A stretch of DNA of 64,000 bases from NCBI RefSeq assembly GCF_030013205.1, contig NZ_CP122648.1. The stretch is one strand, 5' to 3'. The notes beneath the pieces are model-generated. The model was not told the DNA's origin, made no database searches, and was given only the letters and a program-made list of their open reading frames with translations. The translations under genes were made by a program, and so were the position numbers. This stretch comes from Escherichia coli. GTDB lineage: Bacteria; Pseudomonadota; Gammaproteobacteria; Enterobacterales; Enterobacteriaceae. Positions 18,616-23,444 of this stretch are shown here, piece by piece (position 1 is the stretch's first letter; each line of letters opens with the position of its first letter).

Positions 18616-20439
18616 TTAATCGTCTTTCGGTGCGCGGTTGGCGCGGCGACGATCGTTTTCCGTCAGGTGACGTTTACGAATACGGATAGAGGTTGGAGTC
18701 ACTTCTACCAGTTCGTCATCATCGATGAACTCCAGAGCTTGTTCCAGAGTCATGCGGATAGGCGGAACCAGAACAACGGCTTCGTCAGTACCGGAAGCAC
18801 GCATGTTGGTCAGTTTCTTACCGGTCAGGCAGTTTACAGTCAGGTCGTTAGAGCGGCTGTGAATACCGATAATCTGACCTTCGTAAACTTCTGCACCGTG
18901 ACCGAGGAACAGCTTACCGCGATCCTGCAGACCGAACAGCGCGAACGCTACCGCTTTACCCTGACCGTTAGAGATCAGTACGCCGTTCTGACGCTGACCC
19001 ACTTCACCCGGACGTACGTCGTCGTAGTGGCTGAAGGTGGAGTACAGCAGACCAGTACCGGAAGTCATGGTCATGAACTCAGAACGGAAGCCAATCAGAC
19101 CACGGCTTGGGATCACGTAGTCGAGACGTACGCGGCCTTTACCGTCTGGATTCATGTTTTTCAGGTCGCCTTTACGTTCGCCCAGCGCCTGCATCACAGA
19201 ACCCTGATGCTGTTCTTCAACGTCCAGCGTCACGTTTTCATACGGCTCTTGTTTACGACCGTCGATTTCACGGAAGATTACTTTCGGACGGGATACCGCC
19301 AGTTCGAAACCTTCACGACGCATGTTTTCGATCAGAACAGACAGGTGCAGTTCGCCACGACCAGAAACGCGGAACGCATCGGCGTCTTCGGTTTCTTCTA
19401 CGCGCAGCGCAACGTTGTGTACCAGTTCTTTGTTCAGACGATCCAGGATCTGACGAGACGTTACGAACTTACCTTCTTTACCGCAGAACGGCGAGGTGTT
19501 AACGCAGAAGAACATAGAAACGGTCGGCTCATCAACGGAGAGTGCCGGCAGCGCTTCAACGTTTTGCGTGTCGCAAACGGTGTCAGAAATGTTCAGTTCG
19601 CCCAGGCCCGTGATCGCCACGATATCGCCAGCTTCCGCCAGATCGGTTTCGATACGTTCCAGACCGAGGTGGCCCAGCACTTTACCGACTTTCGCGTTGC
19701 GGGTTTTGCCTTCGCTATCGATGATAGTAACCTGCTGGTTCGGCTTCACTTTACCGCGCTTGATGCGGCCAATGCCGATAACGCCAACATAGCTGTTGTA
19801 ATCGAGCTGAGAAATCTGCATCTGGAACGGACCGTCAAGGTCAACGTCCGGCGCAGGAACGTGGTCAACAATCGCCTGATACAGCGGGGTCATGTCTTCC
19901 GCCATATCTTCGTGGTCCAGACCCGCGATACCGTTCAGCGCAGAAGCGTAAACGATCGGGAAGTCCAGCTGCTCGTCGGTCGCGTCGAGGTTAACGAACA
20001 GATCGAATACCTGATCCACAACCCAATCAGGACGCGCGCCAGGGCGGTCAACTTTGTTGATAACAACAATCGGCTTCAGGCCGTAAGCAAACGCTTTTTT
20101 GGTTACGAAGCGCGTTTGCGGCATCGGGCCGTCAAATGCGTCAACCACCAGCAGCACTGAGTCTACCATGGACATTACACGTTCAACTTCACCACCGAAG
20201 TCGGCGTGCCCCGGGGTATCAACGATGTTGATACGGTAATCATTCCATTTGATAGCGGTGTTTTTCGCGAGGATGGTAATCCCACGCTCTTTCTCCAAAT
20301 CGTTGGAGTCCATCACGCGCTCTTGGGTTTCGGCACGAGAGTCGAACGTACCGGATTGTTGGAGCAGCTTGTCTACCAGGGTGGTTTTACCATGGTCTAC
20401 GTGCGCGATGATGGCGATATTACGCAATTTTTCGATCAC
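18616..20439 (-). CDS. typA: Ribosome-associated translational GTPase BipA/TypA
   Basis: 607-aa [26 protein letters not shown]...; G1 AHVDHGKTT and G3 DTPGH motifs. Confidence 0.95.
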
Positions 20440-20587
20440 AACTTTGCCTCAGGCATTAGAAATAGCGCGTTATTGTACACGGATTAATCGCACTACAAAA
20501 CAGGATCACAAACATCCTCCGCAAACAAGTATTGCAGAGTCCCTTTGTGATCGCTTTCACGGAGCATAAAAAGGGTTATCCAAAGGT

Positions 20588-20640
20588 CATTGCACCAATA
20601 TGGTGCTTAATGTTTCCATTGAAGCACTATATTGGTGCAA
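20588..20640 (+). promoter_or_regulatory. Tandem NtrC (NRI) binding sites / enhancer upstream of glnA
   Basis: tgcaccaatatggtgc (20591-20606) and gcactatattggtgc (20624-20638), both fitting the NtrC TGCACC-N5-GGTGCA dyad. Confidence 0.65.
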
Positions 20641-20712
20641 CATTCACATCGTGGTGCAGCCCTGTTGCACGATGGTGCGCATGATAACGCCTTTTAGGGG
20701 CAATTTAAAAGT

Positions 20713-20728
20713 TGGCACAGATTTCGCT
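20713..20728 (+). promoter_or_regulatory. Sigma-54 promoter glnAp2
   Basis: tggcacagatttcgct: GG and GC at the -24/-12 spacing, about 85 nt upstream of the glnA ATG. Confidence 0.7.
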
Positions 20729-20811
20729 TTATCTTTTTTACGGCGACACGGCCAAAATAATTGCAGATTTCGTTACCACGACGACCATGACCAATCCAGG
20801 AGAGTTAAAGT

Positions 20812-22221
20812 ATGTCCGCTGAACACGTACTGACGATGCTGAACGAGCACGAAGTGAAGTTTGTTGATTTGCGCTTCACCGATACCAAAGGTAAAGAACA
20901 GCACGTCACTATCCCTGCTCATCAGGTGAATGCTGAATTCTTCGAAGAAGGCAAAATGTTTGACGGCTCCTCGATTGGCGGCTGGAAAGGCATTAACGAA
21001 TCCGACATGGTGCTGATGCCAGACGCATCCACCGCAGTGATTGATCCGTTCTTCGCCGATTCTACCCTGATTATCCGTTGCGACATCCTTGAACCTGGTA
21101 CCCTGCAAGGCTATGACCGTGACCCGCGCTCCATCGCGAAGCGCGCTGAAGATTACCTGCGTTCCACTGGCATTGCCGACACCGTACTGTTCGGGCCAGA
21201 ACCTGAATTCTTCCTGTTCGATGACATCCGTTTCGGATCTTCTATCTCCGGTTCCCACGTTGCTATCGACGATATCGAAGGCGCATGGAACTCCTCCACC
21301 CAATATGAAGGTGGTAACAAAGGTCACCGTCCGGCAGTGAAAGGCGGTTACTTCCCGGTTCCGCCGGTAGACTCTGCTCAGGATATTCGTTCTGAAATGT
21401 GTCTGGTGATGGAACAGATGGGTCTGGTGGTTGAAGCCCATCACCACGAAGTAGCGACTGCTGGTCAGAACGAAGTGGCTACCCGCTTCAATACCATGAC
21501 CAAAAAAGCTGACGAAATTCAGATCTACAAATATGTTGTGCACAACGTAGCGCACCGCTTCGGTAAAACCGCGACCTTTATGCCAAAACCGATGTTCGGT
21601 GATAACGGCTCCGGTATGCACTGCCACATGTCGCTGTCTAAAAACGGCGTCAACCTGTTCGCAGGCGACAAATACGCAGGTCTGTCTGAGCAGGCGCTGT
21701 ACTATATTGGCGGCGTAATCAAACACGCGAAAGCGATTAATGCCCTGGCAAACCCGACCACCAACTCTTACAAGCGTCTGGTCCCGGGCTACGAAGCACC
21801 GGTAATGCTGGCTTACTCTGCACGCAACCGTTCTGCGTCTATCCGTATTCCGGTGGTTTCTTCTCCGAAAGCACGTCGTATCGAAGTACGTTTCCCGGAT
21901 CCGGCGGCTAACCCGTACCTGTGCTTTGCTGCCCTGCTGATGGCCGGTCTTGATGGTATCAAGAACAAGATCCATCCGGGCGAAGCCATGGACAAAAACC
22001 TGTATGACCTGCCGCCGGAAGAAGCGAAAGAGATCCCACAGGTTGCTGGTTCTCTGGAAGAAGCACTGAACGAACTGGATCTGGACCGCGAGTTCCTGAA
22101 AGCCGGTGGCGTGTTCACTGATGAAGCGATCGATGCGTACATCGCTCTGCGTCGCGAAGAAGATGACCGCGTGCGTATGACTCCGCATCCGGTAGAGTTT
22201 GAGCTGTACTACAGCGTCTAA
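20812..22221 (+). CDS. glnA: Glutamine synthetase
   Basis: 469-aa [34 protein letters not shown]...; adenylylation site region NLYDLP present. Confidence 0.97.
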
Positions 22222-22306
22222 TAGTTGAAGTTGTACTACCCGGCGCAACAACGCCGGGATTTAGTTGCCGTGGAAACTTTCAGCCCATCTCTGCATGGGC
22301 TTTTTT
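22222..22306 (+). ncRNA. glnZ: glnA 3'UTR, likely source of the 3'UTR-derived sRNA GlnZ
   Basis: About 85 nt between the glnA stop and an intrinsic terminator (agcccat-ctctgc-atgggct + tttttt, 22282-22306); a GlnZ sRNA processed from the glnA 3'UTR is established in enterics. Exact 5' end not determinable from sequence. Confidence 0.4.
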
Positions 22307-22355
22307 CTCCGTCAATTCTCTGATGCTTCGCGCTTTTTATCCGTAAAAAGCTATA

Positions 22356-22375
22356 ATGCACTAAAATGGTGCAAC
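22356..22375 (+). promoter_or_regulatory. NtrC operator at the glnL promoter
   Basis: tgcactaaaatggtgcaa, an NtrC dyad overlapping a tataat-like -10 upstream of glnL. Confidence 0.55.
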
Positions 22376-22394
22376 CTGTTCAGGAGACTGCTTT

Positions 22395-23444
22395 ATGGCA
22401 ACAGGCACGCAGCCCGATGCTGGGCAGATCCTCAACTCGCTGATTAACAGTATTTTGTTAATCGATGACAACCTGGCGATCCATTACGCCAACCCCGCCG
22501 CGCAACAACTGCTCGCCCAAAGCTCCCGCAAATTGTTTGGTACACCGTTACCGGAACTGTTGAGCTACTTCTCATTAAATATCGAGCTGATGCAAGAAAG
22601 TCTGGAGGCGGGGCAAGGTTTTACTGATAACGAAGTGACGCTGGTCATCGACGGGCGTTCGCATATCCTTTCTGTGACGGCCCAGCGTATGCCGGACGGC
22701 ATGATCCTGCTGGAGATGGCACCGATGGATAACCAGCGCCGCTTAAGTCAGGAACAGCTACAGCACGCCCAGCAGGTTGCTGCCCGTGATTTAGTGCGCG
22801 GCCTGGCACATGAGATTAAAAATCCGCTTGGCGGTTTACGTGGCGCGGCGCAGCTGCTCAGCAAAGCATTACCTGACCCGTCACTACTCGAATATACCAA
22901 AGTGATTATCGAACAGGCGGACCGGCTGCGAAATCTGGTCGACCGTCTGTTGGGACCGCAACTGCCCGGTACGCGCGTTACCGAAAGTATTCATAAAGTG
23001 GCTGAACGCGTGGTGACGCTGGTGTCGATGGAACTGCCGGACAACGTGCGGTTGATTCGTGATTACGACCCCAGCCTGCCGGAACTGGCGCACGACCCGG
23101 ATCAAATTGAGCAAGTGCTCCTGAATATTGTGCGCAATGCGCTACAGGCGCTGGGGCCAGAGGGTGGTGAAATCATTCTGCGTACCCGCACAGCTTTTCA
23201 ACTGACCTTACACGGCGAGCGTTATCGGCTGGCGGCGCGAATTGATGTGGAAGATAACGGGCCAGGTATTCCGCTTCATTTGCAGGATACACTGTTTTAC
23301 CCGATGGTCAGCGGCCGCGAAGGTGGCACCGGGCTTGGCTTATCCATCGCCCGTAATTTGATTGATCAGCATTCAGGCAAAATTGAATTTACCAGTTGGC
23401 CAGGTCATACCGAGTTCTCGGTTTACCTGCCTATCAGGAAATAA
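22395..23444 (+). CDS. glnL: Nitrogen regulation sensor histidine kinase NtrB (NRII)
   Basis: 349-aa ORF; H-box HEIKNPLGG, and N, G1, G2 boxes. Confidence 0.95.

What the first reader, a model, noticed from the sequence alone, without database searches (positions are those of the whole stretch)
22222..22306. Short glnA 3'UTR with terminator, candidate GlnZ sRNA
The 85 nt between the glnA stop and a strong intrinsic terminator include an internal GC hairpin (22239-22258). sRNAs processed from the glnA 3'UTR are documented in enterics, and some E. coli lineages carry longer 3'UTR variants. The short form here may indicate the lineage-specific variant present in this strain.
Basis: partly seen in the sequence, partly recalled or inferred. 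Interest (0 to 1): 0.3.

Follow-up and report, generated by a model that had tools for sequence, protein, structure and literature searches.

The report
Known short GlnZ (EsrF) small RNA
The 85 bases after the glutamine synthetase gene are the already described short ("O157-type") form of the GlnZ/EsrF regulatory RNA, identical to the published one, so the feature is real but ordinary.

Summary
glnA ends at 22221. Bases 22222-22306 hold a 7-bp all-GC hairpin (22239-22258), a single-stranded stretch UUUAGUUGCCGUGGAAACUUU (22260-22280), and a terminator hairpin with a U-tract (22282-22306).

The glnA-glnL spacer is 100% identical to that of E. coli O157:H7 Sakai. There, exactly this 85-nt RNA has been mapped (EsrF, Jia 2021) and characterised as the "O157-type"/Class I GlnZ (Miyakoshi 2022; Walling 2022).

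The seed is identical to that of K-12 GlnZ. In the closest complete genome (porcine ETEC4079) it pairs with the published sites in the sucA, glnP and aceE leaders, including the experimentally validated G-C(-99) pair in aceE.

The short form is not a rare lineage marker. It is the commonest E. coli allele: 2857 of 5426 complete genomes, against 1571 K-12-type and about 994 O111-type. The seed-plus-terminator module sits right after glnA in at least 114 species of Enterobacterales.

Most likely mechanism (from the literature, not tested here): NtrC/sigma-54 drives glnA transcription, RNase E releases the 3'UTR, and the RNA represses sucA, glnP and aceE with Hfq.

Novelty: already known. Interest: low.

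The parts
20591..20639 (+). Two NtrC-type binding sites upstream of glnA (20591-20607 and 20623-20639)
   Evidence: Matches to TGCACYN4TGGTGCA with 1 mismatch each. Assignment to NtrC rests on established knowledge of the glnA control region.
20713..20728 (+). Sigma-54 promoter-like element (glnAp2): TGGCAC-N5-TCGCT
   Evidence: One-mismatch match to TGGCACN5TTGCW, 84 nt upstream of the glnA start. The motif count in the whole window is no more than chance, so the assignment rests on position and on known glnA biology.
20812..22221 (+). glnA coding sequence (469 aa), the parental mRNA of the sRNA
   Evidence: ORF list. Annotated as glnA in all matching E. coli genomes.
22222..22306 (+). GlnZ, O157-type / Class I (= EsrF): the complete 85-nt glnA 3'UTR
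   Evidence: 100% identical to O157:H7 Sakai over 211 nt of spacer. EsrF was mapped by 5'/3' RACE to exactly 85 nt starting at the T after the glnA stop (PMC8092317). The 85-nt O157 type is described in PMC9731577.
22239..22258 (+). 5' hairpin (7 G-C pairs, loop CAACAA) between stop codon and seed
   Evidence: paired with probability above 0.97. Absent from the K-12 type and retained in the O111 type. Homologous hairpin in Enterobacter sichuanensis and E. mori. E. coli N96 keeps the stem with a different loop.
22256..22264 (+). GGGAUUUAG, the motif reported to pair with the flhB leader (EsrF model)
   Evidence: Motif given in PMC8092317. Its first three bases are the 3' arm of the hairpin. Opening nt 34-43 costs 9.5 kcal/mol.
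22260..22280 (+). Seed region UUUAGUUGCCGUGGAAACUUU (core UUGCCGUGGA, 22265-22274)
   Evidence: Identical in the K-12 and short types; the O111 type lacks one C. Invariant GTTGCCGTGGAAACTTT downstream of glnA in 114 species. Pairs with sucA, glnP and aceE leaders of the same strain. Opening cost 3-4 kcal/mol.
22282..22306 (+). Rho-independent terminator: hairpin 22282-22301 and U-run 22301-22306. Presumed Hfq-binding 3' module.
   Evidence: Terminator scan and fold. Identical in all three E. coli types. 98.5% of cells paired across 93 distinct sequences, nearly invariant. 3' RACE end reported in PMC8092317.
22357..22373 (+). Perfect NtrC-type palindrome TGCACTAAAATGGTGCA in the glnL promoter region, downstream of the sRNA. 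Not part of GlnZ; marks the next transcription unit.
   Evidence: Zero-mismatch match. glnL starts at 22395.

Best explanation
[quoted passage not shown] The same molecule was first published as EsrF.

Proposed mechanism:
1. Under nitrogen limitation, NtrC activates the sigma-54 promoter glnAp2 and glnA is transcribed to the terminator at 22282-22306.
2. RNase E cuts near the stop codon and releases an RNA of about 85 nt (plus shorter species). This RNA consists of a 5' hairpin, a single-stranded seed and a terminator with a U-tail that binds Hfq.
3. The seed (UUUAGUUGCCGUGGAAAC) pairs with the 5' leaders of sucA, glnP and aceE and lowers their expression. This diverts 2-oxoglutarate towards glutamate/glutamine synthesis and limits glutamine import.

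Shown here: sequence identity with the characterised RNA, the anatomy, seed conservation, the presence of the target sites in the same strain, and the promoter motifs. Taken from the literature or inferred: expression, RNase E processing, Hfq binding and repression.
For: Identity with the published RNA:
- The spacer is 100% identical to O157:H7 Sakai. A 48-nt core is 100% identical to EDL933 (H89).
- Literature on exactly this allele: an 85-nt O157-type 3'UTR is detected by northern blot and induced on glutamine as sole N source. O157 GlnZ acts on aceE, and a U41G change weakens this (PMC9731577). EHEC EsrF is induced by low nitrogen and represses glnP, sucA and aceE in K-12 (bioRxiv 10.1101/2022.04.01.486790). 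RACE gives 85 nt starting right after the stop codon, and abundance is Hfq-dependent (PMC8092317).

Seed and targets:
- The seed is shared by the three E. coli 3'UTR types while the rest differs.
- In ETEC4079, which is 100% identical to the window over 24 kb, seed duplexes form with sucA -48..-27 (-20.4 kcal/mol), glnP -22..-11 (-18.4) and aceE -105..-91 (-20.8). GlnZ G46 pairs with aceE C-99, which is the published compensatory pair (G12/C-99 in K-12 numbering).
- The seed is cheap to open, at 3-4 kcal/mol.

Conservation and regulation:
Of these, 114 lie directly after the GlnA C-terminus EFELYYSV* in Enterobacterales.
- Sigma-54 and NtrC motifs lie upstream of glnA.
- No sigma-70-like promoter was found on the + strand in 20400-22800. 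This fits processing rather than separate transcription.
Against: - Nothing here measures RNA. Expression, 5' end, RNase E dependence and Hfq binding in this strain are inferred from O157 and K-12.
- The individual seed-target energies are not rare. Among 506 random 250-nt tiles of the window, 9 (sucA), 34 (glnP) and 5 (aceE) pair at least as well. The pairing argument therefore rests on coincidence with published sites, not on energy.
- Jia et al. reported the opposite regulation (higher at high ammonium, own promoter, TEX-resistant 5' end) for the same RNA.
- The cross-species conservation of the seed was obtained with a pattern that required most of the seed, so it shows breadth but not unbiased conservation.
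Confidence: 0.9

Rival explanations
1. EsrF model. [quoted passage not shown] This would raise flhB expression, motility and virulence.
For: Published for the identical sequence in O157 (PMC8092317). The flhB leader of ETEC4079 carries CUAAAUCCC at -93..-85, within the published -82..-97 site. A 10-bp duplex of -15.5 kcal/mol is possible.
Against: - No sigma-70-like promoter was found on the + strand anywhere in 20400-22800. By eye, the best hexamers upstream of 22222 (TTGAGC and TACTAC) are 2 nt apart.
- Two independent groups found induction by low nitrogen and disagreed explicitly with Jia et al.; RNase E-dependent release was shown for the Salmonella and K-12 glnA mRNAs.
- The GlnZ side of the flhB duplex includes four bases of the all-GC hairpin arm. 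Opening costs 9.5 kcal/mol, against 3-4 for the canonical seed.
- The hairpin, and so part of the motif, is absent from K-12-type GlnZ.
- This strain is a porcine ETEC/O139-like background, not EHEC.
Confidence: 0.12
2. It is only the glnA terminator/attenuator region that insulates glnA from glnLG, with no trans-acting function. The hairpins merely set the level of read-through.
For: Both hairpins score as terminator-like. Partial read-through into glnLG is established for this operon. The terminator helix itself shows almost no covariation.
Against: - A terminator does not need an invariant 17-20-nt single-stranded sequence upstream.
- That sequence is kept in all three E. coli 3'UTR types, while up to 145 nt are inserted on either side of it.
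- It is found after glnA in 114 species with 3'UTRs of 37-211 nt.
- It matches validated target sites.
Confidence: 0.04

Closest known systems
GlnZ, O157-type (Miyakoshi et al. 2022, eLife, PMC9731577) = Class I GlnZ / EsrF of EHEC O157:H7 (Walling et al. 2022; Jia et al. 2021, mBio, PMC8092317)
   Same: Identical sequence over the whole glnA-glnL spacer. Same length (85 nt), same position directly after the glnA stop, same seed, hairpin and terminator.
   Different: Nothing at sequence level. Only the host differs: porcine ETEC/O139:H1-like rather than EHEC O157:H7.
GlnZ of E. coli K-12 (197-nt 3'UTR, Class III)
   Same: Same seed UUUAGUUGCCGUGGAAAC and identical terminator. Same validated targets: sucA, glnP, aceE.
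   Different: In K-12 the seed starts 4 nt after the stop codon and the 5' hairpin is absent. About 150 nt, including a REP element, lie between the seed and the terminator. K-12 nt 4-38 also align with the short form beyond the seed into the terminator's 5' arm and loop.
GlnZ, O111-type (230-nt 3'UTR)
   Same: Same 5' part including the hairpin, and same terminator.
   Different: About 145 extra nt between the hairpin and the seed, and one C missing from the seed (GGAAAUUU). The insert is a repeated element with a second, roughly 85%-identical copy between nfi and hemE in 286 genomes.
Rfam RF02766 Ysr49 (Yersinia sRNA 49)
   Same: In Y. pestis it covers exactly the glnA 3'UTR, from the first nt after the stop codon to the U-tract, and ends in the GlnZ seed and terminator. 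It is therefore the Yersinia orthologue of GlnZ.
   Different: The 5' two thirds are unrelated. The window scores 34.1 bits against a gathering score of 95, so it is not a member of the Rfam family as defined.
Other 3'UTR-derived Hfq sRNAs released by RNase E (CpxQ, SdhX, NarS)
   Same: Same logic: the sRNA shares the promoter of the upstream gene, uses the mRNA's own terminator as its Hfq module, and regulates the same pathway. This comparison rests on established knowledge and on the discussion in PMC9731577.
   Different: Different genes, seeds and targets. No sequence relationship.

Membership tests
GlnZ (glnA 3'UTR-derived sRNA) | Lies on the glnA strand, starts at or near the glnA stop codon, and ends at the glnA terminator | tested here: met
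   Stop at 22219-22221, terminator at 22282-22306, no intervening gene.
GlnZ (glnA 3'UTR-derived sRNA) | Conserved seed of about 20 nt (UUUAGUUGCCGUGGAAAC) | tested here: met
   Identical to K-12 and to O157. GTTGCCGTGGAAACTTT is invariant in 93 distinct Enterobacterales sequences, although most of it was required by the search pattern.
GlnZ (glnA 3'UTR-derived sRNA) | Conserved Rho-independent terminator with U-tail (Hfq module) | tested here: met
   Hfq binding itself was not tested.
GlnZ (glnA 3'UTR-derived sRNA) | Seed complementary to the sucA, glnP (and, in E. coli, aceE) leaders at the published sites | tested here: met
   Target leaders taken from ETEC4079, the genome identical to the window. 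Duplexes. The aceE G46-C(-99) pair equals the published compensatory pair.
GlnZ (glnA 3'UTR-derived sRNA) | Made from the NtrC/sigma-54-driven glnA transcript and induced by nitrogen limitation | tested here: inconclusive
   Promoter and NtrC motifs are present, and there is no internal sigma-70-like promoter. Expression cannot be measured here.
GlnZ (glnA 3'UTR-derived sRNA) | Released from the mRNA by RNase E; Hfq-dependent | not testable with these tools
   Literature only. The upstream cleavage site reported in the K-12 CDS lies in sequence identical to the window up to the stop codon.
EsrF (EHEC O157:H7) | 85-nt RNA with the EDL933/Sakai sequence, containing GGGAUUUAG; flhB leader containing CUAAAUCCC | tested here: met
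   (H89).
EsrF (EHEC O157:H7) | Own promoter within the 3' end of glnA | tested here: not met
   No sigma-70-like site on the + strand in 20400-22800 by the consensus scan. A consensus scan cannot exclude a weak or non-canonical promoter.
Rfam RF02766 Ysr49 | Score at or above the gathering threshold (95 bits) | tested here: not met
   34.1 bits, E = 1.2e-4. The Y. pestis locus scores 159.7 bits.

The most novel reading that the evidence does not exclude
In the short allele the seed begins 38 nt after the stop codon, behind a very stable hairpin, and so outside the reach of a terminating ribosome. In K-12 the seed starts 4 nt after the stop codon, and release by RNase E was shown to be essential, supposedly because translation interferes with pairing. 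In the roughly 70% of E. coli genomes that carry the hairpin (short and O111 types), the unprocessed glnA mRNA might therefore regulate sucA, glnP and aceE directly. This would make the same regulator processing-dependent in some lineages and processing-independent in others. Unrelated, strongly structured segments recur at this position in other genera (64 of 75 with z below -2). That would fit selection for such a spacer or 5' protective stem, but it is equally explained by neutral insertion of hairpin-forming repeats.
Probability: 0.15. Interest if true: 0.35.

Novelty: already known. Interest (0 to 1): 0.1.

Why it matters
GlnZ links nitrogen status to carbon flux. The mRNA that encodes glutamine synthetase also delivers an RNA that lowers 2-oxoglutarate dehydrogenase, pyruvate dehydrogenase and glutamine import. 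For this window the value is annotation. The feature can be labelled glnZ (O157-type/Class I, synonym esrF) with confidence, and is not unexplained spacer.

Three small points extend the literature:
- The allele census over 5426 complete genomes (53% short, 29% K-12-type, 18% O111-type). It shows that the laboratory K-12 form is a minority allele.
- Direct confirmation that all three canonical target sites, and the disputed flhB site, are present in a non-EHEC, non-K-12 background.
- The observation that Rfam already holds the Yersinia orthologue under the name Ysr49, while having no family that captures E. coli GlnZ.

Tried and rejected
- **Rfam:** no family reaches its threshold on the window or on the K-12 and O111 loci. 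The only hits are a sub-threshold Ysr49 match and weak REP-related naRNA4 matches.
- **Whole-RNA duplexfold against whole leaders:** this gave meaningless 80-nt "duplexes" with giant loops. I replaced it with seed-only duplexes and a background of window tiles.
- **Covariation in the terminator:** uninformative, because the helix is nearly invariant (1 compensatory cell; shuffles do as well). It neither supports nor contradicts the hairpin.
- **Seed accessibility across 108 distinct 3'UTRs:** only a weak signal (median P(unpaired) 0.51 against 0.42 for whole UTRs). Not used as evidence.
- **Alignment A4:** it wrongly included a whole 2.3-kb locus. Only the E. coli N96 and Enterobacter sichuanensis rows were used.
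- **Small ORFs across the spacer** (22265-22447 on +, 22236-22361 on -): considered and dropped. They are mechanical ORFs that overlap the terminator and the glnL promoter, and nothing supports them.
- **The 22239-22258 hairpin as a REP element:** considered and not supported. No REP-type Rfam hit appears here, unlike the K-12 insert.

Full report
**1. What is in the sequence**

The window carries typA (18616-20439, minus strand), glnA (20812-22221, plus strand, 469 aa) and glnL (22395-23444), followed by glnG. The glnA stop codon TAA is at 22219-22221.

The 85 nt that follow (22222-22306) read UAGUUGAAGUUGUACUA-CCCGGCG-CAACAA-CGCCGGG-A-UUUAGUUGCCGUGGAAACUUU-C-AGCCCAU-CUCUGC-AUGGGCU-UUUUU. They contain four elements:
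- a hairpin with seven G-C pairs at 22239-22258;
- a 21-nt stretch at 22260-22280, much of it predicted single-stranded;
- a seven-pair terminator hairpin at 22282-22301;
- a run of six U at 22301-22306.

These elements were found by the terminator scan, the MFE and centroid folds and base-pair probabilities. The fold is moderately better than shuffles (z = -2.25).

One nuance: the 85 nt include the terminator.

**2. Identity**

Megablast of 22100-22420 finds the locus in 5425 of 5426 complete E. coli genomes. The matches have three different spans: 321, 433 and 466 nt. Alignment with representatives shows why:
- The window has the shortest glnA 3'UTR, at 85 nt.
- K-12 strains have 197 nt.
- A third group has 230 nt.

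These are exactly the O157, K-12 and O111 types described by Miyakoshi et al. (PMC9731577). The short and K-12 forms correspond to Classes I and III of Walling et al. (bioRxiv 10.1101/2022.04.01.486790).

I fetched the O157:H7 Sakai locus. The window is 100% identical to it over 211 nt, from the end of glnA to the start of glnL. EDL933 is identical over the 48-nt core (H89).

Jia et al. mapped an RNA they called EsrF by 5' and 3' RACE to exactly 85 nt. It starts at the T next to the glnA stop codon and ends at the terminator (PMC8092317).

**3. Host and allele frequencies**

Window 10000-34000 is 100% identical to a group of porcine ETEC and O139:H1 genomes, for example ETEC4079 (NZ_CP122643.1). 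The host is therefore neither EHEC nor K-12.

I counted alleles with three type-specific queries:
- A 48-nt query across the point where the O111-type insert sits can only seed a megablast hit if the junction is uninterrupted. It hits 2857 genomes.
- The K-12-specific 148 nt hit 1571 genomes.
- The O111-type insert hits 994 genomes at 95% identity or better.

The sum is 5422 of the 5425 genomes that have the locus. The short form is thus the commonest allele, at about 53%.

**4. The seed and its targets**

The stretch UUUAGUUGCCGUGGAAAC is the only part of the 3'UTR, besides the terminator, shared by all three E. coli types. The O111 type lacks one C in it. It is the published GlnZ seed.

I located the three validated targets in ETEC4079 itself and computed seed-only duplexes.

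| Target leader | Position relative to start codon | Duplex energy (kcal/mol) | Random 250-nt window tiles pairing at least as well |
|---|---|---|---|
| sucA | -48..-27 | -20.4 | 9 of 506 |
| glnP | -22..-11 (just upstream of the Shine-Dalgarno) | -18.4 | 34 of 506 |
| aceE | -105..-91 | -20.8 | 5 of 506 |

In the aceE duplex, GlnZ G46 (22267) pairs with C-99. This is the very pair proven by compensatory mutation in K-12 (G12C / C-99G).

The energies are not exceptional against the background. The evidence lies in the agreement with experimentally defined sites.

Opening the seed costs 3-4 kcal/mol.

**5. The EsrF/flhB claim**

The flhB leader of ETEC4079 carries CUAAAUCCC at -93..-85, as published for O157. 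A 10-bp duplex is possible. However, the GlnZ partner (nt 34-43) includes four bases of the all-GC hairpin arm, and opening it costs 9.5 kcal/mol.

The consensus scan finds no sigma-70-like promoter on the plus strand anywhere between 20400 and 22800. Both later studies found induction by low, not high, nitrogen; RNase E-dependent release was shown for the Salmonella and K-12 glnA mRNAs.

I therefore rank the EsrF regulatory model low. The flhB pairing itself is not excluded.

**6. Upstream control**

Three sets of motifs bear on control:
- A sigma-54-type element, TGGCAC-N5-TCGCT, lies at 20713-20728.
- Two NtrC-type sites lie at 20591-20607 and 20623-20639. These positions are as expected for glnAp2.
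- A perfect NtrC palindrome at 22357-22373 belongs to the glnL promoter downstream of the sRNA.

**7. Breadth outside E. coli**

I scanned one genome per species for GCCGTGGAAACTTTNNGCCC.
- 114 loci lie directly downstream of a GlnA C-terminus EFELYYSV*.
- 2 are cut by a contig end.
- 4 are chance hits outside Enterobacterales.

The genera include Citrobacter, Enterobacter, Klebsiella, Raoultella, Kluyvera, Serratia, Yersinia, Pantoea, Erwinia, Edwardsiella, Rahnella, Sodalis and Plesiomonas.

The distance from the stop codon to the seed ranges from 10 to 171 nt, and the 3'UTR length from 37 to 211 nt. About a third of species have a minimal 3'UTR of about 59 nt with no hairpin.

Bases not required by the pattern are also nearly invariant: the UU before GCCG, the rest of the terminator stem and the U-tract. 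Because the pattern demanded most of the seed, this shows distribution and not unbiased conservation.

Enterobacter sichuanensis and E. mori have an 81-nt 3'UTR with a homologous hairpin. A divergent E. coli (strain N96) keeps the stem with a different loop and an unchanged seed.

In other genera the pre-seed segment is unrelated in sequence but usually strongly structured. Of 75 segments of at least 30 nt, 64 have z below -2.

**8. Databases**

Rfam 15 has no family that captures this RNA at threshold. The best hit is Ysr49 (RF02766) at 34 bits, against a gathering score of 95.

Run on Yersinia pestis, Ysr49 scores 159.7 bits. It spans exactly from the first base after the glnA stop codon to the U-tract and ends in the GlnZ seed and terminator. 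Ysr49 is thus the Yersinia orthologue under another name.

**9. Verdict**

The feature is the already characterised O157-type/Class I GlnZ (EsrF), present here in its commonest E. coli form.

The mechanism is NtrC/sigma-54-driven glnA transcription, release by RNase E, and Hfq-assisted repression of sucA, glnP and aceE through the seed. It is taken from the literature. Here it is supported by sequence identity, anatomy and the presence of the target sites, not by any measurement of RNA.

The only open angle I can see is whether the hairpin spacer of the short allele makes RNase E processing dispensable. I give this a low probability and modest interest.

Novelty: already known. Interest: about 0.1.

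Noticed in passing
L123 3863-3986 (Yersinia pestis NCTC5923); window 22202-22306: Rfam RF02766 'Ysr49' is the Yersinia glnA 3'UTR sRNA. It starts at the first nt after the glnA stop codon and ends in the GlnZ seed and terminator (159.7 bits). Rfam has no family that reaches threshold on E. coli GlnZ (34 bits on the window). The two names appear not to be linked in the database.
   Followed up: partly
L002 460-606 (O111-type insert); L011 2501-2632 (E. coli WCHEC4533, between nfi and hemE): The roughly 145-nt insert of the O111-type glnA 3'UTR is a repeated element. 286 E. coli genomes carry an approximately 85%-identical copy between nfi and hemE, and some genomes have two places. Its nature (MITE-like or another small repeat) was not determined.
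   Followed up: partly
L001 426-460 (K-12 3'UTR nt 4-38) versus window 22259-22293: K-12 homology with the short form runs past the seed into the 5' arm and loop of the terminator (30 of 34 identical). The K-12 hairpin GCCUG-UCUCUG-GCAGGC looks like a decayed copy of the terminator. The K-12 allele may therefore have arisen by duplication or insertion within the terminator, rather than by a simple REP insertion between seed and terminator.
   Followed up: partly
L014-L133 (glnA 3'UTRs of Enterobacterales): [quoted passage not shown] About a third of species have a minimal 3'UTR of about 59 nt with no hairpin. Most genera have UUUUGUUGCC where E. coli, Citrobacter, Kluyvera and Trabulsiella have UUUAGUUGCC. 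That A pairs with aceE U-95 in E. coli.
   Followed up: partly
L134 150-200 (E. coli N96, Tibetan pig): A divergent short-type allele. The hairpin loop and one stem position differ (CCCGGUG...GGCCGGG, keeping 5 G-C pairs and 1 G-U pair), while the seed and terminator are unchanged.
   Followed up: yes
L004 (E. coli AMSHJX01, NZ_CP030939.1): This is the only genome that lacks most of the query. glnL sits next to a clsB fragment instead of glnA, and nearly every gene in the region is annotated as frameshifted. It is probably a low-quality assembly or a rearrangement.
   Followed up: no
window 22357-22373: A perfect NtrC-type palindrome TGCACTAAAATGGTGCA lies next to a TATAAT-like hexamer (GCTATAATGC, 22349-22358) upstream of glnL. 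This is the classical NtrC-repressed glnL promoter, immediately downstream of the GlnZ terminator.
   Followed up: no
L007 2229-2427 (ETEC4079 sdhB-sucA spacer): The sdhB-sucA spacer of this strain is 199 nt, and the GlnZ site lies at -48..-27 relative to the sucA start. The eLife paper places the Salmonella site at about -166, so the position of the target site varies between backgrounds, as does the position of the seed.
   Followed up: no
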